Sequence record: LC788710.1
Direction: 5' to 3' (one strand)
Origin: Escherichia coli phage Wa28
DNA: 64,000 nucleotides
The notes beneath the pieces were generated by a model, which saw nothing but the letters and a program-made list of their open reading frames with translations, did not search any database and had not been told where the DNA came from. Each line of letters opens with the position of its first letter. Positions within the stretch are counted from its first letter, which is position 1. The translations under genes and the position numbers were made by a program. Below, one piece after another: positions 4,159-33,183 of the stretch.

Positions 4159-4813
4159 GTGCTGCTAACCTGTCTTTATCTGATACGGTAATCATATCAG
4201 GCTCACCAGTTCCTAGTACACCGAAGATATACTGTTCGAGAACTTGGTGTAAACGGTATAAGTTACTTTCAATTTCCTGCCACGGAATACCTGACTGGTG
4301 GAAACGAATGTTTGTCTGAATTACGAAGTTACGAACATCATCGTTATCGTTCTTCTTAATACCTTTCACATATGCAATTGGTACGCGCAGTTCAGATAAG
4401 ATACGTTCTGCTTTAGGTTTTGCTTCAACCAACATATCTCGCATGGTTTCACGAACATCACCACGATTCTTGTCTAGTAAGTAAGAACGGGCATGTAATC
4501 CCATTTCTTCCATTTTATCAAATACAGCATCGATGTTGAACGTTTTGAAACTGAATGCCGGATGCCAGCAGGACAGCTCATGTAACCAGTAAACTTCACC
4601 TGCAATAAACAGCGGATTTACTGAGTATTCGAAATCACCACGGAAGGATAAGGAACCTTCACGAAACACCTGACGATTATGAACAATATTCTTTTCTACA
4701 TCGTCGGTTACTTTTACTCGCAGCTCTTCAGTTTTACGCTCCCAGACACGATCTGGATCAAATAAACTATTCTGCAAATCGTATACATCATTGAACTTTG
4801 AAATGATTCTCAT
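4115..4813 (-). CDS. hypothetical protein
   Basis: ORF track 232 aa, consistent strand and spacing. Confidence 0.5.
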   Translation of the reverse strand: MRIISKFNDVYDLQNSLFDPDRVWERKTEELRVKVTDDVEKNIVHNRQVFREGSLSFRGDFEYSVNPLFIAGEVYWLHELSCWHPAFSFKTFNIDAVFDKMEEMGLHARSYLLDKNRGDVRETMRDMLVEAKPKAERILSELRVPIAYVKGIKKNDNDDVRNFVIQTNIRFHQSGIPWQEIESNLYRLHQVLEQYIFGVLGTGEPDMITVSDKDRLAAHGFDTKTSFRNMAR

Positions 4814-4958
4814 AAATTATCCTTTTGCCTCAATCTATAAACATATTATACAATACTTGTGGCATCTGAGCAACTGAAATTTTATTACAAAAATAGCCCA
4901 GTCGCAAAATTGCAGGCTGGGCTTTGTCATTATTATTCTTGCTAGGAGGTGATTATCA

Positions 4959-5348
4959 TCACTCTTGTTTACTTAATTCTCTAGCACGACGTAGCGATCC
5001 AGCGGTTCTCCATAGTTTAATGTCGTCAACAACTTCTTTGTAGGGAGCAATAGTAAGACCTAGCGGCCCCGCTACCAACAGTCCAAAGAAACCAATTACA
5101 CGCATGTAAAGCAAGCATTCTTTGGGAGTCATTGACTGGACAGCCTGTCTTTCCTCAGCACTGTCGAACTCGTGTTCTCGATCGTCTAAACGTAGGTACT
5201 TAATAAACCATTCAGCAGAATATTCATCCAGATGACGAATAACTGCAATAGCATAGCCTAAACCAATAATAAACCATGCTGCTACAATGAATAAAATAAA
5301 GCTCATGATATCTCCAGTTAAAGTTGAGGTCAGCGACCAACTCACCAC
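4959..5348 (-). CDS. hypothetical membrane protein
   Basis: 129 aa with two hydrophobic helices. Confidence 0.5.
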   Translation of the reverse strand: MVSWSLTSTLTGDIMSFILFIVAAWFIIGLGYAIAVIRHLDEYSAEWFIKYLRLDDREHEFDSAEERQAVQSMTPKECLLYMRVIGFFGLLVAGPLGLTIAPYKEVVDDIKLWRTAGSLRRARELSKQE

Positions 5349-5423
5349 TTACCGCACTAAAGGGGCACGACTCCCTTATCCGTAACAGTTGCAGGTGACG
5401 CAACTCGGTCCTACGCGAGTTCT

Positions 5424-6663: not shown

Positions 6664-6937
6664 CAGGATCTTCCTCATTACAGTCACGGCATACATCATA
6701 ATCGTTGTAAGAATGTTCGTGCGCTTCACACCACCAGCCACATTCGTCACACAGAAAGATTTCGGTCTTTTCAATGGCTTGGCCTAGTAATTCGTAGGCT
6801 TCATCATGTGTAATCTTCAGGCTACAAACATCAGCTACTTGTTGAACAATCAGACTCCCTACTTTGTGGTAGGACATGCAGGTTCCTTGTGCATCATGCT
6901 CAAGGACGTGGATAGCACAGTCTAAGCGATTTTTCAT
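6656..6937 (-). CDS. cysteine-rich small protein (possible zinc-binding)
   Basis: 93 aa; CDECGWWCEAHEH...CRDCNEED; promoter plus SD directly upstream. Confidence 0.5.
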   Translation of the reverse strand: MKNRLDCAIHVLEHDAQGTCMSYHKVGSLIVQQVADVCSLKITHDEAYELLGQAIEKTEIFLCDECGWWCEAHEHSYNDYDVCRDCNEEDPDE

Positions 6938-6967
6938 TTCAAAGCCCTCTCATCAATTTATATAAAT

Positions 6968-6996
6968 ATTATATCAAAAGGAGAGGGTTTTAGCAA
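6968..6996 (-). promoter_or_regulatory. early promoter (-35 TTGCTA, 17 bp, -10 TATAAT)
   Basis: Reverse complement gives TTGCTA-N17-TATAAT then ATTTATATAAATTGATGAGAGG and ATG. Confidence 0.7.
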
Positions 6997-7013
6997 ATGA
7001 ATTATTTACGAAA

Positions 7014-7409
7014 TTAGTCGTAAACCCACCATAACCCACGCTTACGCAGGTCATGATCACGGTTATAGTCATAATTTTCTGGATCTTTCAGTACACGGTG
7101 AAGTTCGCGACGGCTTCCCTGACGAACCATTTTGTTAGAATGCCACTTAACACTTCTGCTAATAGAATCCCACCAGTGTCCATCTTTCTTCTCGTTACGG
7201 ATGATATTTTCCTGAATCTCCTTCTCAATTTCATCCCAAGTTTTAGCCCATGCTTCATTGGAGCGAACTTGATAATATTTCCACTGCTTACCATCCCTAT
7301 CCGTGTAGATATACGGAATACGGATATTAGTGCTATGAAAATTATAAGTAGAACGATGTGCAGCACGCCAGTGACGATCACCAGATTGTTTACGGTATGT
7401 ACGGCTCAT
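7014..7409 (-). CDS. hypothetical basic Trp-rich protein
   Basis: ORF track 131 aa. Confidence 0.45.
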   Translation of the reverse strand: MSRTYRKQSGDRHWRAAHRSTYNFHSTNIRIPYIYTDRDGKQWKYYQVRSNEAWAKTWDEIEKEIQENIIRNEKKDGHWWDSISRSVKWHSNKMVRQGSRRELHRVLKDPENYDYNRDHDLRKRGLWWVYD

Positions 7410-8098: not shown

Positions 8099-8467
8099 TT
8101 ACATCGCCTGAGTAAATGTACGACTAATAACGTCGTTCTGTTGTTCACGCGTCAATGCGTTAAATCGAACAGCATAGCCAGAGACACGGATGGTCAACTG
8201 AGGATATTTTTCAGGATGTTTCTGTGCATCCAAAAGCTGATCACGGCTTAACACATTGACATTTAGGTGCTGACCACCCTCGACTTGAGGAACCACTTCC
8301 ACATCTACAATGCGAAAGGCCTCAGGGTCAAAGTGAGGTGTGATACCTTCTAGATCTTCGACTAGAACTTTCTGTTTAAGTTCACCATCTTTAGAATATA
8401 GTTGAATGATCTGATTGTTATGAACAATGTTAATTACGCCAGACTTAAGACTTTGATATGCTTTCAT
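8099..8467 (-). CDS. autonomous glycyl radical cofactor (GrcA/YfiD-like)
   Basis: 122 aa; C-terminal [12 protein letters not shown]...[31 protein letters not shown] closely resembles the GrcA/pyruvate formate-lyase glycyl radical domain. Confidence 0.8.
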
Positions 8468-8832
8468 TAGATCTCCCTGATGTTAGAATTTGGCTCAGCT
8501 TTTTGTTAACCCAGAAGCAAGATAAAAACTGGAAGGCAGGCTTGCTTATTAAGTGAATACCCGATAATCGCTCGTAGTCCGGCTTGTGGATTGATAGTCC
8601 CATTCAGTTTAATAAGCACAGGAGCTTTGATTTTAACGTTGCGATCTTCCAGGTCTGTTGCAACTACGTGATTGCTCACGCTAAGACAATGGCTATCTAA
8701 AGTCTTAGCTTCTACATTTATACTCCTGGATAGCATGGAGTTGCAGTCTACTTCCTGCTGTCACGCCCGGCCATTTATAGAATGTGGACTCTCTTCTCAG
8801 CAGGATCTGGTACAATGACCTGATCCTCTGTT

Positions 8833-8908
8833 TGGTAGTTAGTAGTGGATTTGAACCACTGTAGTCGCTCCGTATGAAGGAGGTGCATAACCACTCTGCC
8901 AACTAACT
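8833..8908 (-). tRNA. tRNA-Met (anticodon CAT), manual call
   Basis: GTTCAAATCC T-arm, perfect 7-bp acceptor stem, encoded CCA, anticodon loop TTCATAC. Confidence 0.6.
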
Positions 8909-10847: not shown

Positions 10848-10937
10848 TGGCAGAAGATAATGGAGTCGAACCATCACCGTATCACTACAGCGGGCCGGTT
10901 TTCAAGACCGGTTACGTACCACTACGTCCTATCTTCT
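10848..10937 (-). tRNA. tRNA-Ser (anticodon TGA), class II, manual call
   Basis: Long variable arm, anticodon stem-loop CCGGT-CTTGAAA-ACCGG, CCA end. Confidence 0.55.
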
Positions 10938-11164
10938 AGTATTTGTTCTACTTCTTTTCGAAGATCTTCTGGATTATCATGATAGGTTGTTTGCCATACA
11001 TAAATAACTCCAGTATCACATGCTTTATCAAATATTTCTCGCTCAGGAAGTTTCATGCCCATTGCGTACTTGATATGAAACTCTAAAGCTTGCTTACTAG
11101 GGAATGTATGACGCAAGAAAAACTTATCATTAACTAAATCCAACATCATAATCTTGACTTTCAT
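10922..11164 (-). CDS. hypothetical protein
   Basis: ORF track 80 aa; 3' end overlaps the called tRNA 5' end. Confidence 0.4.
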   Translation of the reverse strand: MKVKIMMLDLVNDKFFLRHTFPSKQALEFHIKYAMGMKLPEREIFDKACDTGVIYVWQTTYHDNPEDLRKEVEQILEDRT

Positions 11165-11859: not shown

Positions 11860-11938
11860 TGGTGGAGAATAAGAGATTCGAACTCTTCTGATATCCTCGG
11901 TGCAAGCGAGGTGTCCACTCCAAGCAGACCCATTCCCC
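11860..11938 (-). tRNA. second tRNA-Ala-like gene (anticodon TGC), slightly longer, manual call
   Basis: G3-U70, anticodon stem-loop CCTCG-CTTGCAC-CGAGG; D-arm not resolved. Confidence 0.45.
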
Positions 11939-12674: not shown

Positions 12675-12678
12675 AATT

Positions 12679-12756
12679 TGGTGGATTGCCTGGGATTCGA
12701 ACCCAGAACTGACGGATTAAAGGTCCGCTACTCTTATCCGGTTGAGCTAGCAATCC
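12679..12756 (-). tRNA. tRNA-Lys (anticodon TTT?), manual call
   Basis: GGGTTCGAATCCC T-arm, loop CCTTTAA (C at position 33 is unusual). Confidence 0.5.
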
Positions 12757-13220
12757 AATTTTTCTACTAATAATTTAAAAGCATCTAGTACAGGTACTTC
12801 AAACCATTCCCCGGATACTCTGTAGTCTTTGAGAAGATTATGTAACTCTTTCTCCGTACGTCTTTTATCTGACGAAAATCTGAAATGGTGTAGCTTGTAG
12901 TCTCTATTAGGTGAATAGGTTTGATAACTTGCTAACCTCTCATTTACATCTATAGTCATACCTATTTTATACATGCCTGGCCATGCGGGATTACCGATTA
13001 CATATACAAAACCTTCCGTTATAGGTATTTTATGTTCTCTTTTGTATTTTAAGAGATTTAAAGCTGCCATTCGATAACAGAATTTAAATTCTGAAGTTTT
13101 TAACTTACCCTCTTTACCAGAAATTTCATTATATTTGCTCATATAAGCTCTTATAAGCTTATCATCTATAATAAAATTATCAGGAAGGTTTAAGGCAGCT
13201 AAAACTTTATTAATTAGCAT
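12747..13220 (-). CDS. T5orf172-domain protein (GIY-YIG-like putative homing endonuclease)
   Basis: 157 aa; motif FVYVIGNPAWPGMYKIGMTIDVNERLASYQ. Confidence 0.6.
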   Translation of the reverse strand: MLINKVLAALNLPDNFIIDDKLIRAYMSKYNEISGKEGKLKTSEFKFCYRMAALNLLKYKREHKIPITEGFVYVIGNPAWPGMYKIGMTIDVNERLASYQTYSPNRDYKLHHFRFSSDKRRTEKELHNLLKDYRVSGEWFEVPVLDAFKLLVEKLDC

Positions 13221-13374
13221 AAACTTCCTTAATAGAGTAGACTTTCAAGTAAGGATGATTAATACCAAATTCCGCCATTACTTCATTTTCATCTTTACCA
13301 TAATGGGCTAGTGGATACTTCTTACGATCTTTACTAGAACGTAAATCACTTACTTTTAAACGAAATAATTTCAT
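13210..13374 (-). CDS. small ORF (54 aa) missed by ORF track
   Basis: ATG at 13372-13374 with AAGGA SD; ends overlapping start of downstream gene. Confidence 0.35.
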   Translation of the reverse strand: MKLFRLKVSDLRSSKDRKKYPLAHYGKDENEVMAEFGINHPYLKVYSIKEVYAN

Positions 13375-13395
13375 TTCGAAATCCTTCTATTAAAT

Positions 13396-13472
13396 TGGAA
13401 GCGGGTGCAGGAATCGAACCTACCTCTTTCTAGCTTATGAGACTAGCGATCTCTACCAGAGATCTAACCCGC
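13396..13472 (-). tRNA. tRNA with CAT anticodon (Met/fMet candidate), manual call
   Basis: Loop CTCATAA; apparent mismatch at acceptor pair 1:72, which suggests initiator-like. Confidence 0.5.
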
Positions 13473-13479
13473 AATTGTT

Positions 13480-13557
13480 TGGTCTCCGTGGGAGGATTTG
13501 AACCCCCGACCCTATCGCCCCAAACGAAACGCTCTAGCCAAACTGAGCTACACGGAG
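13480..13557 (-). tRNA. tRNA-Pro (anticodon TGG), manual call
   Basis: GGGGGTTCAAATCCTCC T-arm, loop TTTGGGG, CCA end. Confidence 0.55.
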
Positions 13558-13589
13558 AATATTCTTTGTTAACTCACTTTATAAAATAT

Positions 13590-13618
13590 ATTATACAGAG
13601 AATTAAGCTAAATAGCAA
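13590..13618 (-). promoter_or_regulatory. early promoter (-35 TTGCTA, -10 TATAAT) upstream of tRNA-Pro and the CAT tRNA
   Basis: Conserved module. Confidence 0.6.
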
Positions 13619-13872
13619 CTACATTTTTTAATAAATTTACTTATTGCGTAGGCCACCTGGAGGGTTCAAGCCCCACGGCTGACAAAGAAGTTTGCGAGAC
13701 TTCTCTTAAACGCCAGAATAGACCCGCCGATCTATCGGAACCTACTCAATAAGTAAACTTTCGTTTACCTACACCTACCTGGTCGGGAGGATTTTCAGCG
13801 ACTAGAACCGGCCGGAAACTCATCGCCTTGTTTATCTAGGAGTCCGTTCTCTAGGAAGCAGAAACCTAAATT

Positions 13873-13946
13873 TGGTGCGGTCGGAGGGAATCGAACCCTC
13901 AACTTCTGGTTGGCAACCAAAAATTATACCTTTTAACTACGAACGC
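13873..13946 (-). tRNA. tRNA-Gly (anticodon GCC), manual call
   Basis: GAGGGTTCGATTCCCTC T-arm, loop TTGCCAA. Confidence 0.55.
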
Positions 13947-14159
13947 ATAATAAGTCAATCTAGGCAGGACTTGAACCTGCTATCACTTGTGCGGATTTAC
14001 GAGAACCATTCTTTCACTCGAATCGAACGAGCTTCTACCCTCGGCAAGCTGGTGTCCCCTCTCCACCACGCTAGAATGATAATTAGTGCCTGCTCCTTTG
14101 AATCAAGAAGTCCACCCCGGACTTTGGGTCTTTGCAGTACATCACGCTGCTCTGATGTT
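13947..14159 (-). other. ORF-free segment with two T-arm-like motifs; candidate degenerate tRNAs or small RNAs
   Basis: GCAGGTTCAAGTCCTGC and CTCGTTCGATTCGAG (reverse complement) without clean acceptor partners. Confidence 0.3.
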
Positions 14160-14236
14160 TGGTACACCCACTAGGACTTGAACCTAGAACCTACCGCTTA
14201 AGAGGCGGTAGCTCTAACCAATTGAGCTATGGATGT
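14160..14236 (-). tRNA. tRNA-Lys (anticodon CTT?), manual call
   Basis: CTAGGTTCAAGTCCTAG T-arm, anticodon stem-loop ACCGC-CTCTTAA-GCGGT. Confidence 0.5.
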
Positions 14237-14242
14237 ATAATT

Positions 14243-14317
14243 TGGCGGTACTAAGGGTAATCGAAACCCTACCTCTCCCGTGACAGGGGAGTATCCTAAC
14301 CGTTAGACTATAGTACC
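14243..14317 (-). tRNA. tRNA-Asp (anticodon GTC), manual call
   Basis: Discriminator G, anticodon stem-loop CTCCC-CTGTCAC-GGGAG. Confidence 0.6.
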
Positions 14318-14889
14318 TTTAACTTTTTAAGTTCTTTAGGATTGCCTCCTAAAGAAGTGTATCTTTTACGCAACCCATTATCTGAATAACTTAACTTTCT
14401 CCCTGCACCTGACCAGCCTAGCTCTCTTACTGTAACCTCGATTATTTCTTTAGTTATAGAGATATCTTTTGGTTTATGTGAAGAGCACTCCTGACATTTT
14501 TCAGCTTTTAAAGAAATAGCTTTACCACAATCCTTACAACAATTATCATGGTTTAGTTTACTAAATCCTTTATCTTTTAAAGTCTTTTCTAGATGCTGCT
14601 CTTTTGTGAGCACTTGTAAGTTATTAAGACCCCAATAAGTAATGTCTGTGTTAATATGGTCAACTTCTAGTTCAGAGTCTAGACTTGGTAATTTCTTAAA
14701 TGCACATGCTAAAATCCTATGTACACCGGTATTTCTCTGTTGACCATTTTTATGGAGACGTATAGATAAGTATCCGTAATTACTGGTTATTTGGGTTAGT
14801 ATTTTGTTTGATTTGATACTAAATACTAACCCATCCAAACTTACTAAGTACTCCTCAAACCCTGGAATGGGTAAGGATATTCCGTGCAT
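14308..14889 (-). CDS. HNH homing endonuclease
   Basis: 193 aa; GYLSIRL...VHRILACAF...EVDHINTDITYWGLNNLQVLT, C-terminal Cys cluster. Confidence 0.65.
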   Translation of the reverse strand: MHGISLPIPGFEEYLVSLDGLVFSIKSNKILTQITSNYGYLSIRLHKNGQQRNTGVHRILACAFKKLPSLDSELEVDHINTDITYWGLNNLQVLTKEQHLEKTLKDKGFSKLNHDNCCKDCGKAISLKAEKCQECSSHKPKDISITKEIIEVTVRELGWSGAGRKLSYSDNGLRKRYTSLGGNPKELKKLKVL

Positions 14890-14892
14890 AAT

Positions 14893-15078
14893 TTACTCAG
14901 TTTTGAGTTTTTCGATAGCTTCCTCAACCTCTTTTAGAGCTTCACGACGCTCTACTTGACCTTGAAGTTCTTCAAGAAGTTCAGCTTTCAGAGCCTTAAT
15001 AATATTACCACGAACCTTAATATTATTAATCAGATTATCACGATCAGCTTCTAGTCGAGCAATTGCACGAGTTGTCAT
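14893..15078 (-). CDS. small coiled-coil protein
   Basis: ORF track 61 aa. Confidence 0.4.
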   Translation of the reverse strand: MTTRAIARLEADRDNLINNIKVRGNIIKALKAELLEELQGQVERREALKEVEEAIEKLKTE

Positions 15079-15181
15079 ATCTATTTCCTCAGTTGTTAAT
15101 GAAAAATGGTATCTGTGACTGAATTCGATATCAGCAATGATAGCTGGTTGGCTACCGGTTTACTTAACTCTACACAGAATA

Positions 15182-15264
15182 TGGCGGGCCGTGTAGGATT
15201 CGAACCTACGTTGTCTTTCGACATGGATTAACAGTCCACCGCCAAACCGCTTGGCTAACGACCC
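15182..15264 (-). tRNA. tRNA, anticodon read as GTT (Asn?) but with long variable region; manual call
   Basis: Perfect T-arm GTAGGTTCGAATCCTAC, acceptor pairing, CCA end, loop CTGTTAA, 13-nt variable region. Confidence 0.45.
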
Positions 15265-15271
15265 TAAAATT

Positions 15272-15347
15272 TGGACGACCGCATGAGATTCGAACTCACA
15301 TAAGGAGGTTTTGCAGGCCTCCGCCTAAGCCATTCAGCCAACGGTCG
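15272..15347 (-). tRNA. tRNA-Cys (anticodon GCA), manual call
   Basis: Anticodon stem-loop GGAGG-(C)CTGCAAA(A)-CCTCC; GAGTTCGAATCTC T-arm. Confidence 0.5.
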
Positions 15348-15525
15348 ATTTATCTTGCTTTTCGAGATTAGTAAACTCTAGATCTTTAGAATGTCCTATA
15401 GATCTAGCATAATAGCCATCTCCAGCATCGTAGCCTGATTTACCGCACTCACACATCTTAAACTCTCTATAATGAGTGAAAATATGTTCAGAACCACAAC
15501 ACTTAAATTTAACTAACATTTTCAT
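15334..15525 (-). CDS. small Cys-rich protein
   Basis: 63 aa; CCGSEH...CECGKSGYD. Confidence 0.4.
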   Translation of the reverse strand: MKMLVKFKCCGSEHIFTHYREFKMCECGKSGYDAGDGYYARSIGHSKDLEFTNLEKQDKSTVG

Positions 15526-15764
15526 TTAACACGCTCCGGTAAATCTTCGAGTTTATATTGAGTAGCCACATTAGCAGCATCTAGTAACAAACCCATATGT
15601 TTAAGAATCCTAGTGATAGCCTCGCCTTCTGCTTCTTCTACAAAAGTGCGTAGTTGAATGAAGTCAATACCCCCATCCATACCAGAGAAAATGTTTAGTA
15701 AGCGAAGCATTACCAGCTTACGTTCTTTCAATTCTTGTTCTGTCATGTTGCTTCTCCAGTTCAA
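15522..15764 (-). CDS. hypothetical protein
   Basis: ORF track 80 aa; promoter module upstream. Confidence 0.45.
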   Translation of the reverse strand: MNWRSNMTEQELKERKLVMLRLLNIFSGMDGGIDFIQLRTFVEEAEGEAITRILKHMGLLLDAANVATQYKLEDLPERVK

Positions 15765-15775
15765 TTTATGTAATA

Positions 15776-15804
15776 ATTATACAGAACTTTAAGCGGTTAA
15801 GCAA
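15776..15804 (-). promoter_or_regulatory. early promoter (-35 TTGCTT, -10 TATAAT)
   Basis: Conserved module. Confidence 0.6.
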
Positions 15805-16075
15805 CTACATTTTTTAAGAATTTGATGCCTTTCTTTTTCTTCTTATATTTCCACGTTAACGGGTTCTGTCGATTATGAACGCTTGAGATCTTTGTCTCGT
15901 CAAAGTTCTTCAAAACCATGTAATCACAGGCCAACTGTTCTAGTGGGATGTGATCTCCATCAAAAGCATAAACATAAGGCTGTTGACTAGCACGATAATG
16001 ATAGACTTTGTTAATTCTGCGTTTCAGTGACTTATCCGCACAGTAAATAAAGAAGTTTTCAGGATGCATCAGCAT
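15797..16075 (-). CDS. hypothetical protein
   Basis: ORF track 92 aa. Confidence 0.4.
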   Translation of the reverse strand: MLMHPENFFIYCADKSLKRRINKVYHYRASQQPYVYAFDGDHIPLEQLACDYMVLKNFDETKISSVHNRQNPLTWKYKKKKKGIKFLKNVVA

Positions 16076-16086
16076 CTCCTTAAAAT

Positions 16087-16161
16087 TGGTGCACCCTGTT
16101 CGTATCGAACGAACCTCTCAAGCTCTTCAGGCAAGCGCTAATCCATCTCAGCTAAAGGTGC
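16087..16161 (-). tRNA. tRNA, anticodon not resolved by eye
   Basis: GTTCGTATCGAAC T-arm with 5-bp stem, acceptor pairing, CCA end. Confidence 0.4.
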
Positions 16162-16167
16162 AAATAT

Positions 16168-16243
16168 TGGCAAACCTACTAGGACTCGAACCTAGACCGT
16201 ACGGTTTTGGAGACCGACATGCTGTCCAGTAACACTCTAGGAA
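16168..16243 (-). tRNA. tRNA-Trp (anticodon CCA?), manual call
   Basis: CTAGGTTCGAGTCCTAG T-arm, loop CTCCAAA; acceptor has 2 mismatches. Confidence 0.4.
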
Positions 16244-16252
16244 TGCAGAAAT

Positions 16253-16329
16253 TGGCGTCCTGTGCGGGGATCGAACCCGCAAACCCCACCTTGAAAGGGT
16301 GGTGACTTTACCAGTTTGTCTAACAGGAC
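16253..16329 (-). tRNA. tRNA-Glu (anticodon TTC), manual call
   Basis: Discriminator G, anticodon stem-loop CCACC-CTTTCAA-GGTGG, GCGGGTTCGATCCCCGC T-arm. Confidence 0.6.
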
Positions 16330-16811
16330 TTAAATTGTTTATTGGATAGATTGTTAAACTCGGAAAGTATGTCGTCTACACTTCTGTCTAACACTACCCA
16401 TTCATTAAGCCGTTCAGGAAAGCTATTATGAAGCATTTTCTCCGCTTCTCTAGCATTAAACCAAAATGACCAATGTATTAACTTATAATCACGTAAGGGA
16501 GAATAAGTTTGGTAATTTCCTAATCTTGTTTTAGGATCAGAAGACATACCAATTTTTACATAGTTATCCCACGCTGGGTTAGTTATTGCATAAATAAAAC
16601 CACAGCTGGATTTTTCTCCAATACTTTTGTTATACTTGATAAAAGATAGGGCAGATAACTTCAAGCTATATCGACGATTACTATCGCGACCAAAGTTAGC
16701 TGTACCAAATGTGAGGCTTTCTAATATTAGATCTTTGTTTATATCGGCGGGTGAACCCAACTGTATAATACCTCTATTTGCAGCTTCTTGAATTATCCGA
16801 TCAATATACAT
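16320..16811 (-). CDS. T5orf172-domain protein (GIY-YIG-like), paralog of 12747-13220
   Basis: 163 aa; GFIYAITNPAWDNYVKIGMSSDPKTRLGNYQTYSP. Confidence 0.6.
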   Translation of the reverse strand: MYIDRIIQEAANRGIIQLGSPADINKDLILESLTFGTANFGRDSNRRYSLKLSALSFIKYNKSIGEKSSCGFIYAITNPAWDNYVKIGMSSDPKTRLGNYQTYSPLRDYKLIHWSFWFNAREAEKMLHNSFPERLNEWVVLDRSVDDILSEFNNLSNKQFKSC

Positions 16812-16829
16812 ATCCTTTACCTTTAATTT

Positions 16830-16917
16830 GGTGGGCGTTAATGGAGTCGAACCACTCGAGTCGCAATGACCAGGGATTTACAATCCCCTCCGCTACCACT
16901 TACGGAATAAACGCCCA
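16830..16917 (-). tRNA. tRNA-Tyr (anticodon GTA), class II, manual call
   Basis: Anticodon stem-loop GGGGA-TTGTAAA-TCCCT, long variable arm, CCA end. Confidence 0.6.
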
Positions 16918-17045: not shown

Positions 17046-17321
17046 TTACTCGAAGCTAGGAGTGACGCTCAGTTTGAATGGAAGCTCGAACACTTCTTCA
17101 TAATCATCATTGAGCGTAATTACACGACCTTCTAGCTTAGTCATGGTGATTTCGATATCAGCCCTTGCATCAGGAGCCATACCAGCTTCCACACATTTAG
17201 CTTTAACTTCCGGCAGAAGTTCTACGTCGTAGAAATAAAGCCATTCAATCTCACCTTCCCAGCCACCCCAGGATTTACAAACAGCACTTTCAACACCAGT
17301 TGCAGTAACACGTTTTGACAT
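17046..17321 (-). CDS. hypothetical protein
   Basis: ORF track 91 aa; promoter upstream. Confidence 0.45.
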   Translation of the reverse strand: MSKRVTATGVESAVCKSWGGWEGEIEWLYFYDVELLPEVKAKCVEAGMAPDARADIEITMTKLEGRVITLNDDYEEVFELPFKLSVTPSFE

Positions 17322-17351
17322 TCGTTAACTCCTTCATCAATTTATATAACT

Positions 17352-17854: not shown

Positions 17855-18208
17855 TTAGCGAATCTCTAAACCCTGGAAATATCGAGGGAATGGAGAGCCA
17901 ACTTCAAAATTGATGCCCCAATTAAGTTCAACGAGTTCAGATTTATTAAGATCTAGGCCATTACCTTCAAAGATATAGCCGTAAACCGCAGGAAACATAG
18001 CTGCTAGATCTTCCATATCGGAATGAGCATTGTGTTCTTCACGGAACTGCTCAAACTCTTCAAAGAACTTTTCTAGGAAGAACTCAGGTACGATGAACGT
18101 TACCACATCAGTAGAATCATCGGTACGATACACCGTAGCTTGGAACAAGCCAACACCTAAAAGGTTTATTGCCGGAGTAGTAAAAATATCCATCTTAGCC
18201 TCGCTCAA
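17855..18208 (-). CDS. hypothetical acidic protein
   Basis: ORF track 117 aa. Confidence 0.45.
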   Translation of the reverse strand: MSEAKMDIFTTPAINLLGVGLFQATVYRTDDSTDVVTFIVPEFFLEKFFEEFEQFREEHNAHSDMEDLAAMFPAVYGYIFEGNGLDLNKSELVELNWGINFEVGSPFPRYFQGLEIR

Positions 18209-18380
18209 TGTCTAGACAAATTGCATATTCAGGGTTGATACCAGTACCTTTACATGTAGGACATTCCCATTCTCTACAGAAAATACCCCCCGGTTCTGCA
18301 TCATCCTGCCTACCACCACCATGACAGTCCTTACACCGACATTCTTCTAATGCTTTCTTCATTTCATAGAATCTAGACAT
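18195..18380 (-). CDS. small zinc-ribbon-like protein
   Basis: 61 aa; CKDCHGGG...CPTCKG. Confidence 0.4.
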   Translation of the reverse strand: MSRFYEMKKALEECRCKDCHGGGRQDDAEPGGIFCREWECPTCKGTGINPEYAICLDIERG

Positions 18381-18397
18381 ATAGTCTCCTGGTTAAT

Positions 18398-18475
18398 TGG
18401 TGGCTCCCGGAGGATTCGAACCTACCTACCTTTCGCTTATGAGGCGACGGCTCATACCAAATGAGCTTGAGAACC
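18398..18475 (-). tRNA. tRNA with CAT anticodon (Met or Ile2/lysidine candidate), manual call
   Basis: D-arm GCTC-ATTTGGTAT-GAGC, loop CTCATAA, acceptor GGTTCTC/GGGAGCC with G-U pairs. Confidence 0.5.
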
Positions 18476-22299: not shown

Positions 22300-23130
22300 A
22301 TTTTTAAGAACTCTTATAAAAGCTCTTAAAGATACCAGACGGTAGGTAGGGTCAGCCCCCTCAGATTAAGCTCTGCAGCCCTTCCGTCAGACAATATCTT
22401 CCAGTTTAAGTCAGGGTGACTTTGTGGTTATGTTCTCCGTATGTGAAGAACTCGGTTAGGCTTAGGTCATGACTCCCAGCCTACTGCTGCCGCTCAACAG
22501 GAATTATCGCGAATTACCTGTACTATTGGGCACCATTAGTGACATCTCTCATGTCAGCGTTTCCCACTCTCATATTCACGCGGTCTGTTAGAATCGCACC
22601 TCCGATTTTCGATGCGAAGCTGGATGCCTAGTCTCAGGTTAAACGGGGCACACACTAGGCAGTGATCCCGAGTTCCGAGTTTGGTTGAGGCCGTCAGGTT
22701 TCCTCGTGGTTTAGCTGTTTCGATTCTAACCTAATACTGATCAGGTGGCGTACCTCCTGAACCGTCATAGTATGTACTCCAGCAGCGAATGCTTATCCGG
22801 TATAAGCCCGAGTTATCTGATTCTTTCCGACCGCAGGATTCGAACCTGCATCTTCCACCAGTTACGGTTTGATATTACCGTTTATACTAGGACGGCAGTG
22901 TTATCACATAAGTCAGTTCGACACCCCACTAACATAAACTAGAGAAGAGTTTACGAGATTTCGGGACAGCTCCCGAGTTTTCCGCAGATTTTCAGTTCCC
23001 TATCAATAGCAATAAGCGTTAGCTCGTAGCCTCTCTCAGAGTACTTACTAGTCTCCAACTCACCGACTCTATTCAGTGGAATAGCTATCCTAGTAGGAAT
23101 CACTAAACTCACTCAGCGTAATCGGCTCGC
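22300..23130 (-). ncRNA. ~0.8 kb promoter-driven region without ORFs; candidate structured noncoding RNA(s) with a tRNA-like T-arm element
   Basis: No minus-strand ORF of 60 aa or more; early promoter at 23152-23180 points into it; GCAGGTTCGAATCCTGC element near 22826-22850; locally higher GC. Confidence 0.35.
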
Positions 23131-32565: not shown

Positions 32566-33084
32566 TTATTCTCCATTATTAGCGTATTCGCCATGAAATT
32601 CTTTAAGTTTAATATCTCTATGTTCTAGAGCTTTTTCTAGAGGCATTGCGGAAGATCTGTAAACAGTACCGTTGTGTGTTATCCTAACCCTCCAGTTTCC
32701 TGAACTAAGAGGCTCTAGGTTTTTATGTCCATGGGTATTGTTTTTACCGGCTCCCCTATTTTGGGCATTACCAGCATCGGTTGATTCTCGTAGATTTAAA
32801 GGATGGTTATTAAGTTTATTTGTATCTTTATGGTCTACTGTCTTAGTTGGGTAATATCCATAATAGAGACAGAAGATTACTACATGATTTCTTAATTCCC
32901 ATCTATAACCTTCCACGTTAAGTCGGAAGCATAGGTAGCCATTTCCATTGACGGCTCCTACAGGTTTTCCAGCAAATCTAGTATTAAATCCACCTTTATT
33001 AGTCTCTCTTGGCTTCCAATAGAGAGTATCTTCTCTGAGTTCTAGATATTTCTCTAGAAATTCTTTTGTTAGTTGAGGTTTCAC
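32566..33084 (-). CDS. HNH homing endonuclease (freestanding, between nrdB and nrdA)
   Basis: 172 aa; GYLCFRL...VDHKDTNKLNNHPLNLR plus AP2-like C-terminal region. Confidence 0.65.
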   Translation of the reverse strand: MKPQLTKEFLEKYLELREDTLYWKPRETNKGGFNTRFAGKPVGAVNGNGYLCFRLNVEGYRWELRNHVVIFCLYYGYYPTKTVDHKDTNKLNNHPLNLRESTDAGNAQNRGAGKNNTHGHKNLEPLSSGNWRVRITHNGTVYRSSAMPLEKALEHRDIKLKEFHGEYANNGE

Positions 33085-33108
33085 AGTATATCTCCTTAAT
33101 ATAGAGAT

Positions 33109-33137
33109 ATTATAGCAAATCTGGTAGCGATTAGCAA
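33109..33137 (-). promoter_or_regulatory. early promoter
   Basis: Conserved module (-35 TTGCTA, -10 TATAAT). Confidence 0.6.
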
Positions 33138-33183
33138 GTAAAATTTCAAAGAAAAAGGAGACCCGAAGATCTCCTTGTTTTTA

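What the first reader, a model, noticed from the sequence alone, without database searches (positions are those of the whole stretch)
12747..16811. Two paralogous T5orf172-domain (GIY-YIG-like) genes embedded among the tRNAs
12747-13220 and 16320-16811 share the motif (F/G)(V/I)Y(V/A)I(G/T)NPAW...(Y)(K/V)KIGM...R(L)..YQTYSP. Both are flanked by tRNA genes and sit near an HNH gene (14308-14889). This looks like mobile endonuclease genes accumulating in the tRNA cluster, possibly driving tRNA gene turnover.
Basis: partly seen in the sequence, partly recalled or inferred. Interest (0 to 1): 0.4.

Follow-up and report, generated by a model that had tools for sequence, protein, structure and literature searches.

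The report
Mobile nuclease genes inside phage tRNA cluster
Two related small nuclease genes and one HNH nuclease gene in the tRNA cluster of a T5-like phage behave as selfish "homing endonuclease" genes that come and go between related phages, sometimes carrying the neighbouring tRNA gene with them; this kind of element is known, but this subfamily's close tie to tRNA clusters appears not to have been described.

Summary
ORF A (12747-13220, minus strand) and ORF B (16320-16811, minus strand) are real paralogues: 44% identical, both above the Pfam T5orf172/MUG113 cut-offs, both in PHROG 5032. The window is an Epseptimavirus-like T5 relative, closest to Shin27. The family's founding protein, T5 ORF172 (T5.069), lies in the same tRNA cluster at a third site that is empty here.

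Each gene occupies one fixed site but is present in only a minority of about 399 related records: ORF A 21%, ORF B 10%, the HNH gene 14%. Insertion boundaries are precise and the three assort independently. Intact copies are under strong purifying selection (dN/dS 0.03-0.07); some copies are frameshifted or truncated.

ORF B with its tRNA-Tyr allele is 100% identical across backgrounds whose adjacent gene is about 81% identical. The 99.86% identity between window and Shin27 breaks exactly at ORF B. ORF A is almost always linked to one tRNA-Lys allele (85 of 86 records).

All three stop codons are the U8-A9-G10 of the downstream tRNA. Homologues sharing the helical N-terminal domain were next to tRNA genes in all 26 other loci examined. 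These are most likely free-standing GIY-YIG-type homing endonuclease genes, functionally like T4 SegB. No nuclease activity has been shown.

The parts
12747..13220 (-). ORF A: 157-aa protein with a helical N-terminal domain (residues 1-62) and a T5orf172/GIY-YIG-type nuclease domain (residues 70-154)
   Evidence: AlphaFold2 model with mean pLDDT 87.6. dN/dS of 0.03-0.05 against orthologues. Present in 85 records.
12679..12756 (-). tRNA-Lys(UUU), the allele linked to ORF A. Its first 10 nt encode the last codons and the TAG stop (tRNA positions 8-10) of ORF A.
   Evidence: This allele is found with ORF A in 85 of 86 records. Empty genomes (T5, GreteKellenberger, faergetype) carry other tRNA-Lys alleles.
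13210..13374 (-). 54-aa ORF, the homologue of T5.065. Its last codons overlap the ORF A start codon and mark the left boundary of the ORF A cassette.
   Evidence: PHROG 6221. In empty genomes this gene is followed directly by tRNA-Lys, and its last four codons differ.
14308..14889 (-). NUMOD4 + HNH endonuclease gene, a third mobile nuclease gene. It is a paralogue (43% identity) of T5 F-TflII.
   Evidence: Present at 80% identity or more in 57 records. Absent with a precise empty site in T5, S133, GreteKellenberger, ESCO30, Bf23 and slur09.
14243..14317 (-). tRNA-Asp. Its positions 8-10 supply the TAG stop codon of the HNH ORF.
16320..16811 (-). ORF B: 163-aa paralogue of ORF A with the same two-domain architecture.
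   Evidence: dN/dS about 0.06. 39 full-length and 2 truncated copies in the phage collection.
16253..16329 (-). tRNA-Glu. Its positions 8-10 supply the TAG stop codon of ORF B. The 99.86% identity between the window and Shin27 ends at this junction.
16829..16916 (-). tRNA-Tyr, allele 1, carried by every ORF B-bearing genome. It has compensated stem differences from the alleles in Shin27/Eps7 and in T5.
   Evidence: 100% identical in five ORF B carriers from two genera, 64% identical to Shin27 and 80% to T5. The allele also occurs without ORF B in about 79 records.
16812..16828 (-). 17-nt leader between tRNA-Tyr and the ORF B start codon (AATTAAAGGTAAAGGAT, containing a Shine-Dalgarno-like AAGG). 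Together with the ORF it replaces the 6-8-nt AATT(T)AA spacer seen at empty sites.
15265..15271 (.). Empty tRNA-Cys|tRNA-Asn junction. In T5 and Bf23 this is the site occupied by the family's founding gene, T5 ORF172 (T5.069).

Best explanation
ORF A, ORF B and the neighbouring HNH ORF are free-standing homing endonuclease genes living in the intergenic spacers of the phage's tRNA cluster. ORF A and ORF B belong to the T5orf172 branch of the GIY-YIG nuclease superfamily. Their nuclease domain is C-terminal and is preceded by a roughly 65-residue three-helix domain, which I infer determines target specificity. The proposed mechanism is inferred by analogy with T4 Seg endonucleases. [quoted passage not shown] Recombinational repair then uses the gene-bearing genome as template. 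This copies in the nuclease gene together with flanking DNA, including the adjacent tRNA allele: tRNA-Lys for ORF A and tRNA-Tyr for ORF B. The result is patchy presence at a fixed site, transfer across genera, recombination boundaries at the gene, and replacement of tRNA alleles. Each ORF lacks its own stop codon and ends on the U8-A9-G10 of the downstream tRNA. RNase P processing of the polycistronic transcript should therefore cut off the stop codon and keep nuclease expression low, as was proposed for T4 SegB. Shown here: family membership, conserved catalytic-type residues, site-specific presence/absence polymorphism, horizontal spread, allele linkage, purifying selection and decaying copies. 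Inferred, not shown: nuclease activity, the target sequence, self-catalysed homing, and regulation through tRNA processing.
For: Family and fold: both ORFs score above the Pfam T5orf172 and MUG113 cut-offs. G70, Y73, K85, G87, R95, Q100, P104, E123, E138 and W139 are invariant in both alignments, and Y99 in one of them. These include the GIY-type Tyr, the Arg 8 residues after the KIG Gly, the Tyr at Arg+4, and a Glu about 43 residues further on, a spacing similar to my recollection of the I-TevI catalytic residues (not checked here). The AlphaFold2 model (pLDDT 87.6) shows a beta-beta-alpha-beta-alpha core. The only PDB hits with non-trivial probability are the GIY-YIG nucleases Slx1, HIGLE and UPF0213. 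BFVD T5 Orf172 proteins match at E = 1e-27 to 1e-10.

Mobility: ORF A occurs in 85, ORF B in 39 and the HNH gene in 57 of about 399 related records. The three assort independently in the panel of T5, Shin27, Eps7, S133, GreteKellenberger, faergetype, ESCO30, Bf23 and slur09. Boundaries are precise.

Horizontal spread: ORF B plus tRNA-Tyr is 97.5-100% identical in Epseptimavirus and Tequintavirus backgrounds whose adjacent gene is only 81-83% identical. Bf23 combines a T5-type upstream gene with the window-type ORF A and tRNA-Lys.

Recombination boundary: the window and Shin27 differ by 12 mismatches in 8348 nt up to position 16347, then become mosaic.

Linkage: the ORF A-type tRNA-Lys allele is found with ORF A in 85 of 86 records.

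Selection and decay: dN/dS is 0.03-0.07. Eps7 has a +1 frameshift. Several records show length variants. AZ23 carries a truncated ORF B.

Stop codons inside tRNAs: all three are TAG at tRNA positions 8-10. Seven of seven nuclease ORFs lying directly upstream of a tRNA end inside it, against 2 of 6 other small ORFs, Fisher p = 0.02.

Precedents: T4 SegB (PMC2330249) and ICP1 T5orf172 homing endonuclease genes sitting at boundaries of genetic exchange (PMC10448857).
Against: No cleavage, homing or expression data exist for these proteins or any T5-like orthologue that I could find. Foldseek E-values against the PDB are not significant (0.25-1.6), and sequence and profile searches of the PDB found nothing. 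The N-terminal domain matches no Pfam family and no solved DNA-binding fold, so its role in target recognition is a guess. Linkage of each gene to the tRNA 0-17 nt away is expected from physical proximity alone. The ORF B-type tRNA-Tyr allele also occurs without ORF B in about 79 records. At least one genome, Kenya-K37, has an empty site with both window-type flanks. So there is no sign of drive to fixation and no evidence that the flanking allele is an immunity variant. A dN/dS of 0.03-0.07 is strong constraint for a purely selfish gene and is compatible with a function useful to the phage. Record counts include GenBank/RefSeq duplicates and closely related isolates.
Confidence: 0.78

Rival explanations
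1. The genes are accessory 'moron-like' cargo that is useful to the phage, for example a DNA-binding regulator derived from a nuclease or a weapon against competing phages or satellites. In this view ordinary homologous recombination between the highly similar tRNA genes shuffles them, not their own endonuclease activity.
For: Purifying selection is very strong (dN/dS 0.03-0.07). The Pfam domain was first described as DNA-binding and many records annotate it that way. Domesticated T5orf172 relatives exist, such as CapR in PLE and the Odn nuclease in ICP1. Conserved tRNA genes give plenty of homology for cassette exchange. Empty sites with both cognate flanks persist, as in Kenya-K37.
Against: The catalytic-type residues (Tyr, Arg, Glu) are invariant in both paralogues and in all homologues aligned. 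Frameshifted and truncated copies occur, as expected from the gain-and-decay cycle of a homing endonuclease gene. Three unrelated or paralogous nuclease genes, but no other gene class, show this pattern at separate tRNA junctions. The sharp break in identity exactly at ORF B matches the published behaviour of phage homing endonuclease genes.
Confidence: 0.13
2. The proteins act on RNA or on tRNA metabolism, for example in processing or repair of the phage tRNA transcripts, or in countering host anticodon nucleases. Their position in the cluster would then reflect co-regulation with the tRNAs, not DNA homing.
For: The helical-domain subfamily is next to tRNA genes in all 26 additional loci examined across several phage families. 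The ORFs are co-transcribed with tRNAs and physically overlap them.
Against: A function needed for tRNA biology should be conserved, yet each gene is absent from 79-90% of close relatives that carry the same tRNAs. To my knowledge, characterised GIY-YIG and T5orf172 enzymes are DNA endonucleases. Sites differ between paralogues (Lys, Glu and Asn junctions) and show no consistent tRNA partner.
Confidence: 0.05
3. The ORFs are non-functional remnants or chance reading frames between tRNA genes.
For: Many genome records leave them unannotated, for example slur09 and ESCO30. Some copies are frameshifted.
Against: Pfam and PHROG E-values reach 1e-52. dN/dS is 0.03-0.07, with 24 synonymous against 3 non-synonymous differences between the window and S133 for ORF A. 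The structure prediction is confident.
Confidence: 0.02

Closest known systems
T5 ORF172 (T5.069, AAS77115.1), the founding member of Pfam T5orf172 (PF10544)
   Same: It has the same two-domain architecture and the same PHROG. phmmer E-values against ORF A and ORF B are 3e-39 and 2e-36, and tblastn identity is 47% and 40%. It lies in the same tRNA cluster and also reads into the downstream tRNA (24 nt into tRNA-Asn).
   Different: It is a different paralogue at a different site, tRNA-Cys|tRNA-Asn, which is empty in this window. Conversely, T5 is empty at both the ORF A and ORF B sites. It has not been characterised experimentally either.
T5orf172 homing endonuclease genes of Vibrio phage ICP1 and relatives (Barth, Dunham and Seed 2023, PMC10448857)
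   Same: Same nuclease domain family. Presence is variable between isolates, some copies are frameshifted, and the genes sit at boundaries of genetic exchange. That paper already notes that T5orf172 genes are abundant in T5-like phages.
   Different: The ICP1-type proteins use CapR, DUF723 or DUF4397 Zn-finger DNA-binding repeats and sit next to essential genes such as terminase, ribonucleotide reductase and capsid genes. The window's proteins have a short helical N-terminal domain with no Zn finger and sit in tRNA clusters. The paper does not mention tRNA clusters as a T5orf172 niche. Zn-ribbon relatives sampled here lie elsewhere, e.g. between helicase and DNA polymerase genes, with no tRNA nearby.
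T4 SegB, a GIY-YIG homing endonuclease in the T4 tRNA cluster (PMC2330249)
   Same: It is a free-standing GIY-YIG-superfamily gene inside a phage tRNA cluster and is absent from close relatives. It drives preferential inheritance of the tRNA region. tRNA processing cuts its transcript between the last sense codon and the stop codon. Its target lies in a tRNA gene and includes the T-psi-C motif.
   Different: SegB is a canonical GIY-YIG protein and not a T5orf172 protein; Barth et al. state that T4 has no T5orf172 genes. From memory, its nuclease domain is N-terminal, the opposite order to the proteins here. Its activity, recognition site and homing are demonstrated experimentally, whereas here they are only inferred.
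[quoted passage not shown] 2004, pmid 15456135)
   Same: The window's HNH ORF is 43% identical to F-TflII and shares the NUMOD4 + HNH architecture. It lies in the tRNA cluster and ends inside a tRNA, as hegC and hegD do.
   Different: It occupies a different site, T5.068-homologue|tRNA-Asp, which is empty in T5. It is unrelated in fold to ORF A and ORF B.

Membership tests
Pfam T5orf172 (PF10544) / MUG113 (PF13455), GIY-YIG clan | Profile HMM score above the curated gathering threshold | tested here: met
   ORF A scores 56.3 bits (T5orf172) and 68.2 bits (MUG113). ORF B scores 34.7 and 34.6 bits. The cut-offs are 20 and 22.3 bits.
Pfam T5orf172 (PF10544) / MUG113 (PF13455), GIY-YIG clan | Conserved catalytic-type residues: the GIY-type Tyr, the Arg after the (Y/K)IG motif, and a downstream Glu | tested here: met
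   Y73, K85, G87, R95, E138 and W139 are invariant in 17- and 18-sequence alignments that include both window proteins; Y99 is invariant in one and nearly invariant in the other. The second Tyr of the canonical YIG motif is not conserved; the motif reads K-I-G. Barth et al. report Glu-dependent nuclease activity for one T5orf172 protein.
Pfam T5orf172 (PF10544) / MUG113 (PF13455), GIY-YIG clan | GIY-YIG alpha/beta fold | tested here: inconclusive
   The AlphaFold2 model (pLDDT 87.6) has a beta-beta-alpha-beta-alpha-beta-beta-alpha core. The best specific PDB matches are GIY-YIG proteins: Slx1 with probability up to 0.84, HIGLE and UPF0213. Their E-values are only 0.25-1.6, and sequence and profile searches of the PDB were empty.
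Pfam T5orf172 (PF10544) / MUG113 (PF13455), GIY-YIG clan | Mg-dependent DNA endonuclease activity | not testable with these tools
   Requires a biochemical assay.
Free-standing homing endonuclease gene | Present or absent at one fixed site among closely related genomes, with precise empty sites | tested here: met
   ORF A is in 85, ORF B in 39 and the HNH gene in 57 of about 399 records, always at the same junction. Empty sites were aligned base by base.
Free-standing homing endonuclease gene | Horizontal spread that is incongruent with the flanking genome, with recombination boundaries at the gene | tested here: met
   ORF B plus tRNA-Tyr is identical in backgrounds whose neighbouring gene is 81-83% identical. 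Bf23 is a chimera. Identity between the window and Shin27 breaks at ORF B.
Free-standing homing endonuclease gene | Decaying copies (frameshifts, truncations) alongside intact copies under selection | tested here: met
   Eps7 has a +1 frameshift. AZ23 has a truncated copy. Several records show length variants. dN/dS of intact copies is 0.03-0.07.
Free-standing homing endonuclease gene | The enzyme cleaves the allele that lacks the gene, and inheritance in crosses is super-Mendelian | not testable with these tools
   Requires cleavage assays and mixed-infection crosses.
SegB-like tRNA-cluster homing system (works like, not a member of) | The gene lies inside a phage tRNA cluster, and its stop codon is removed by 5' processing of the downstream tRNA | tested here: met
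   The location and the overlap are shown: the stop codon is tRNA positions 8-10 for all three ORFs. Actual processing and its effect on expression were not tested. The precedent is described in PMC2330249.
SegB-like tRNA-cluster homing system (works like, not a member of) | The recognition site lies in a tRNA gene (T-psi-C motif) | not testable with these tools
   There is only indirect support: allele linkage and the subfamily's restriction to tRNA clusters.

The most novel reading that the evidence does not exclude
The helical-N-domain T5orf172 proteins (roughly PHROG 5032) would be a distinct lineage of homing endonucleases specialised for phage tRNA gene arrays. Their three-helix N-terminal domain, which resembles no solved fold, would recognise tRNA-gene DNA. 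This would let the lineage colonise tRNA junctions in unrelated phage groups: several Demerecviridae lineages, four Straboviridae genera, and Vibrio and uncultured phages. It would also move whole tRNA alleles between phages as nuclease-plus-tRNA cassettes. These genes would then be a main driver of the diversity of phage tRNA repertoires. Their expression would be throttled by RNase P cleavage, because they borrow their stop codon from the tRNA.
Probability: 0.4. Interest if true: 0.55.

Novelty: new member of a known kind. Interest (0 to 1): 0.36.

Why it matters
Phage tRNA clusters are now studied as counter-measures against host tRNA-cleaving defences and as aids to codon usage, but how their gene content changes so quickly is poorly understood. 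This locus gives a concrete and testable system. It has three nuclease genes at defined tRNA junctions. Natural donor and recipient pairs exist that are 99.9% identical next to the site (this phage and Shin27). One nuclease is almost perfectly linked to a particular tRNA-Lys allele. If the nucleases do home, they would explain the mosaic tRNA repertoires of T5-like phages, which are widely used for therapy and biocontrol. The T5orf172 subfamily would also offer small (about 160 aa) site-specific nucleases with a new type of targeting domain. If they do not home, the strong purifying selection points to an unknown function that benefits the phage and is tied to tRNA clusters.

Tried and rejected
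1. I tested the idea that the tRNA-Tyr allele next to ORF B is specific to ORF B carriers (an immunity variant). It is not: about 79 records carry the allele with an empty site.

2. I tested the idea that every empty site with both window-type flanks (Tyr-1|Glu-1) has already been filled by homing. It has not: Kenya-K37 is exactly such an empty site.

3. I tested whether the roughly 155-nt tRNA-Cys|tRNA-Asn spacer in S133, slur09 and ESCO30 is a decayed T5.069-type gene. It shows no meaningful similarity.

4. I first claimed that all full-length homologues lie in tRNA clusters. IMG/VR showed 8 of 25 exceptions. All eight have a different, Zn-ribbon N-terminus, and the one examined in detail lies between helicase and DNA polymerase genes. 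The claim was therefore narrowed to the helical-domain subfamily.

5. Sequence and profile searches against the PDB found nothing.

6. Foldseek of the isolated N-terminal domain against the PDB gave no significant match, and Pfam finds nothing in either N-terminal domain.

7. The consensus promoter and terminator scan found no more sites than in shuffled sequence. The transcription context therefore rests on homology to the promoters annotated in T5.

8. Most fetched loci were not visible to the Python sandbox. Locus comparisons were made with the built-in aligner, and the classification of IMG/VR loci was tallied by hand.

Full report
OBSERVATION. ARAGORN finds 29 tRNA genes in the window, all on the minus strand, 28 of them between 8.8 and 18.6 kb. 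The quoted motif is present in both proteins. They align at 44% identity over 88 residues (E = 6e-25). Both exceed the curated Pfam cut-offs for T5orf172 and MUG113, two families of the GIY-YIG clan. Both match the same phage family, PHROG 5032, at about 4e-52. A six-frame phmmer scan finds no further paralogue in the window. The ORF at 14308-14889 is a NUMOD4 + HNH endonuclease and is 43% identical to the T5 endonuclease F-TflII. One detail needs correcting: ORF A has a tRNA only on its downstream side, and a 54-aa ORF lies upstream.

WHAT THE WINDOW IS. The region is 98% identical to E. coli phage Shin27 and 92-96% identical to many Epseptimavirus and Tequintavirus phages of the Demerecviridae, the T5-like phages. 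In T5 itself the annotated gene T5.069 is 519 nt, or 172 aa. It is the ORF172 that gave the Pfam family its name. It lies in the same tRNA cluster, between tRNA-Cys and tRNA-Asn. That junction is only 7 nt long, and therefore empty, in the window. In turn, T5 is empty at the ORF A, ORF B and HNH sites.

PRESENCE AND ABSENCE AT FIXED SITES. A conserved neighbouring gene, the T5.071 homologue, occurs in about 399 records of the phage collection. ORF A orthologues at 80% or more protein identity occur in 85 records. ORF B orthologues occur in 39 records, plus two truncated copies. The HNH gene occurs in 57 records. When present, each gene is always at the same junction. In a nine-genome panel the three genes and T5.069 assort independently:
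- Shin27 has ORF A and the HNH gene but not ORF B.
- S133 has ORF A and ORF B but not the HNH gene.
- GreteKellenberger has only ORF B.
- Bf23 has ORF A and T5.069.
- T5 has only T5.069.

Base-level alignments show precise cassettes. ORF B with a 17-nt leader replaces a 6-8-nt AATT(T)AA spacer between tRNA-Tyr and tRNA-Glu. ORF A is inserted between the last codons of the T5.065 homologue and the first base of tRNA-Lys.

HORIZONTAL SPREAD AND tRNA ALLELES. The five ORF B carriers compared come from two genera. They share a 100% identical tRNA-Tyr allele and nearly identical ORF B sequences (97.5-100% across all carriers in the collection), while the next gene upstream is only 81-83% identical in three of the four backgrounds compared with the window. 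The tRNA-Tyr alleles of empty genomes differ by compensated changes in the acceptor and anticodon stems. The window and Shin27 differ at 12 of 8348 positions up to coordinate 16347. That identity ends exactly at the junction of ORF B and tRNA-Glu, and the sequence beyond it is mosaic. This is the behaviour reported for phage nuclease genes by Barth et al. (PMC10448857).

For ORF A, the downstream tRNA-Lys allele is found with the gene in 85 of 86 records. Bf23, a close relative of T5, carries a T5-type upstream gene joined to the window-type ORF A and tRNA-Lys. T5.069 is likewise followed by a tRNA-Asn allele unlike the one in genomes that lack it.

Two caveats apply. Such tight linkage is expected for sequences 0-17 nt apart. 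The ORF B-type tRNA-Tyr allele also occurs with an empty site in about 79 records, and Kenya-K37 has an empty site with both window-type flanks. So I reject the ideas that the flanking allele is carrier-specific or that all cognate sites have been filled.

REAL PROTEINS, WITH DECAY. Nei-Gojobori dN/dS is 0.03-0.05 for ORF A and about 0.06 for ORF B; for example, the window and S133 differ by 24 synonymous and 3 non-synonymous changes in ORF A. Eps7 has a +1 frameshift at about codon 6. Several records show length variants of 1, 4 or 10 nt. AZ23 retains only the 5' half of ORF B, at the edge of a large deletion of the tRNA cluster.

STRUCTURE. In alignments of 17 and 18 homologues, G70, Y73, K85, G87, R95, Q100, P104, E123, E138 and W139 are invariant, and Y99 is invariant or nearly so. 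This is the pattern expected for a GIY-YIG-type active site: Tyr, Arg, Tyr at Arg+4, and Glu. The AlphaFold2 model (pLDDT 87.6) has three N-terminal helices (residues 2-62) and a C-terminal beta-beta-alpha-beta-alpha core. Against the PDB, the only matches with meaningful probability are GIY-YIG nucleases (Slx1, HIGLE, UPF0213), but their E-values are 0.25-1.6. Against BFVD, T5 Orf172 proteins match over the full length at 1e-27 to 1e-10. The N-terminal domain alone (pLDDT 84.9) matches no solved structure and no Pfam family.

STOP CODONS BORROWED FROM tRNAs. ORF A, ORF B and the HNH ORF each end 10 nt inside the downstream tRNA, and in each case the stop is TAG formed by U8-A9-G10. T5.069, hegC, hegD and the faergetype paralogue also end inside a tRNA, by 24, 14, 23 and 15 nt. 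So 7 of 7 nuclease ORFs directly upstream of a tRNA end inside it, against 2 of 6 other small ORFs in the window (p = 0.02). The T4 SegB paper describes the same arrangement. It proposes that tRNA 5' processing cuts off the stop codon and lowers expression, and it notes that the T5 F-Tfl genes are similarly placed (PMC2330249).

BEYOND T5-LIKE PHAGES. I examined nine isolates outside the Markadamsvirinae: Aeromonas 44RR2.8t.2, Stenotrophomonas IME13, Edwardsiella PEi26, E. coli REP3, Vibrio Hades, Achelous, PG07 and 1.121.O, and Klebsiella K7_rec9. In all nine the two-domain homologue is next to a tRNA gene. In four it overlaps the downstream tRNA by 10-27 nt, and in two it stops 1 nt short. 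A nuclease-only homologue in a jumbo phage lies between capsid and tail-fibre genes.

In 79 IMG/VR loci, 17 of 25 full-length matches but only 2 of 54 nuclease-only matches have an adjacent tRNA (p = 2e-9). The eight full-length exceptions all carry a Zn-ribbon N-terminus (CNRC...ICKxCD) in place of the helical domain, and the one examined lies between a helicase gene and a DNA polymerase gene. The helical-domain subfamily is therefore tRNA-adjacent in 26 of 26 additional loci examined. These loci are not phylogenetically independent, and the IMG/VR classification was tallied by hand. I found no paper that links T5orf172 genes to tRNA clusters. HNH homing endonuclease genes in phage tRNA clusters, and SegB, are documented.

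MECHANISM AND VERDICT. The best-supported reading is that these are free-standing homing endonuclease genes. They would cut empty alleles at or near the tRNA junction during co-infection and be copied in by repair, together with the flanking tRNA alleles. Their expression would be limited by tRNA processing. The population-genetic signatures are shown here; the enzymology and the homing are inferred. The main rival is useful cargo shuffled by ordinary recombination between conserved tRNA genes. It is not excluded, and the very low dN/dS counts in its favour.

The genes themselves are not new. Orthologues are in dozens of database phages, some already annotated as putative homing endonucleases. 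The family name comes from this very cluster. What may be new is the restriction of the helical-domain subfamily to tRNA clusters and the nuclease-plus-tRNA cassettes.

Noticed in passing
window 32569-33180 (-): A second HNH endonuclease ORF (204 aa, Pfam HNH_3 E = 1.5e-10) lies outside the tRNA cluster. It is only weakly similar to T5 hegC.
   Followed up: partly
window 16829-16916 (-) and 11860-11938 (-); also 22825-22896 (-): ARAGORN calls tRNA-Tyr and a second tRNA-Ala here, but neither reaches the gathering score of the Rfam tRNA model. Some database records label this tRNA-Tyr allele 'pseudo' or 'other'. Its stems pair correctly when inspected by eye. Rfam also reports a borderline extra tRNA-like hit at 22825-22896 (29.3 bits) that ARAGORN does not call.
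   Followed up: partly
window 15334-15525 (-) and 10922-11164 (-): Two small ORFs that are not nucleases (PHROG 7042/DUF7695, and an 80-aa ORF) also run into the downstream tRNA: 14 nt into tRNA-Cys and 16 nt into tRNA-Ser. Reading into a tRNA is therefore not exclusive to the nuclease genes.
   Followed up: partly
L010 (E. coli phage AZ23) 1501-1871; also AZ21: A large deletion joins the 5' half of ORF B directly to a distal tRNA-Met and removes most of the tRNA cluster (the genome is about 104 kb). One deletion end-point lies inside the nuclease gene.
   Followed up: partly
window 13558-13872 and 13947-14159: These two stretches of 315 and 213 nt inside the cluster have no tRNA and no sizeable minus-strand ORF. 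T5 annotates stable RNAs and tRNA-like RNAs (RNA2, RNAIV and others) in this part of its cluster. Rfam found nothing here at gathering threshold.
   Followed up: no
L004 (S133) 6912-7066; L009 (slur09) 5024-5175; L007 (ESCO30) 5201-5352: Some relatives have a conserved spacer of about 155 nt between tRNA-Cys and tRNA-Asn, where the window has 7 nt and T5 has ORF172. It is not a remnant of ORF172, and its nature is unknown.
   Followed up: partly
L005 (GreteKellenberger) 4787-5104; L006 (faergetype) 4808-5125; window 12675-12678: Genomes lacking ORF A carry a 318-nt gene (VOG9698) between tRNA-Lys and tRNA-Val, where the window has a 4-nt spacer. This is another insertion/deletion polymorphism in the cluster, associated with the alternative tRNA-Lys allele.
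   Followed up: no
window 17855-18400 and 17047-17346: Relative to Shin27, two further blocks are strongly divergent (about 40-60% and about 80% identity) and are separated by stretches that are 98-100% identical. The mosaic therefore continues upstream of ORF B.
   Followed up: no
L006 (faergetype) 8329-8874: In faergetype a different T5orf172 paralogue (about 41% identical to ORF A) sits upstream of tRNA-Glu, tRNA-Tyr is absent, and a deletion reaches to pnuC. The same tRNA-Glu junction can therefore host different paralogues.
   Followed up: partly
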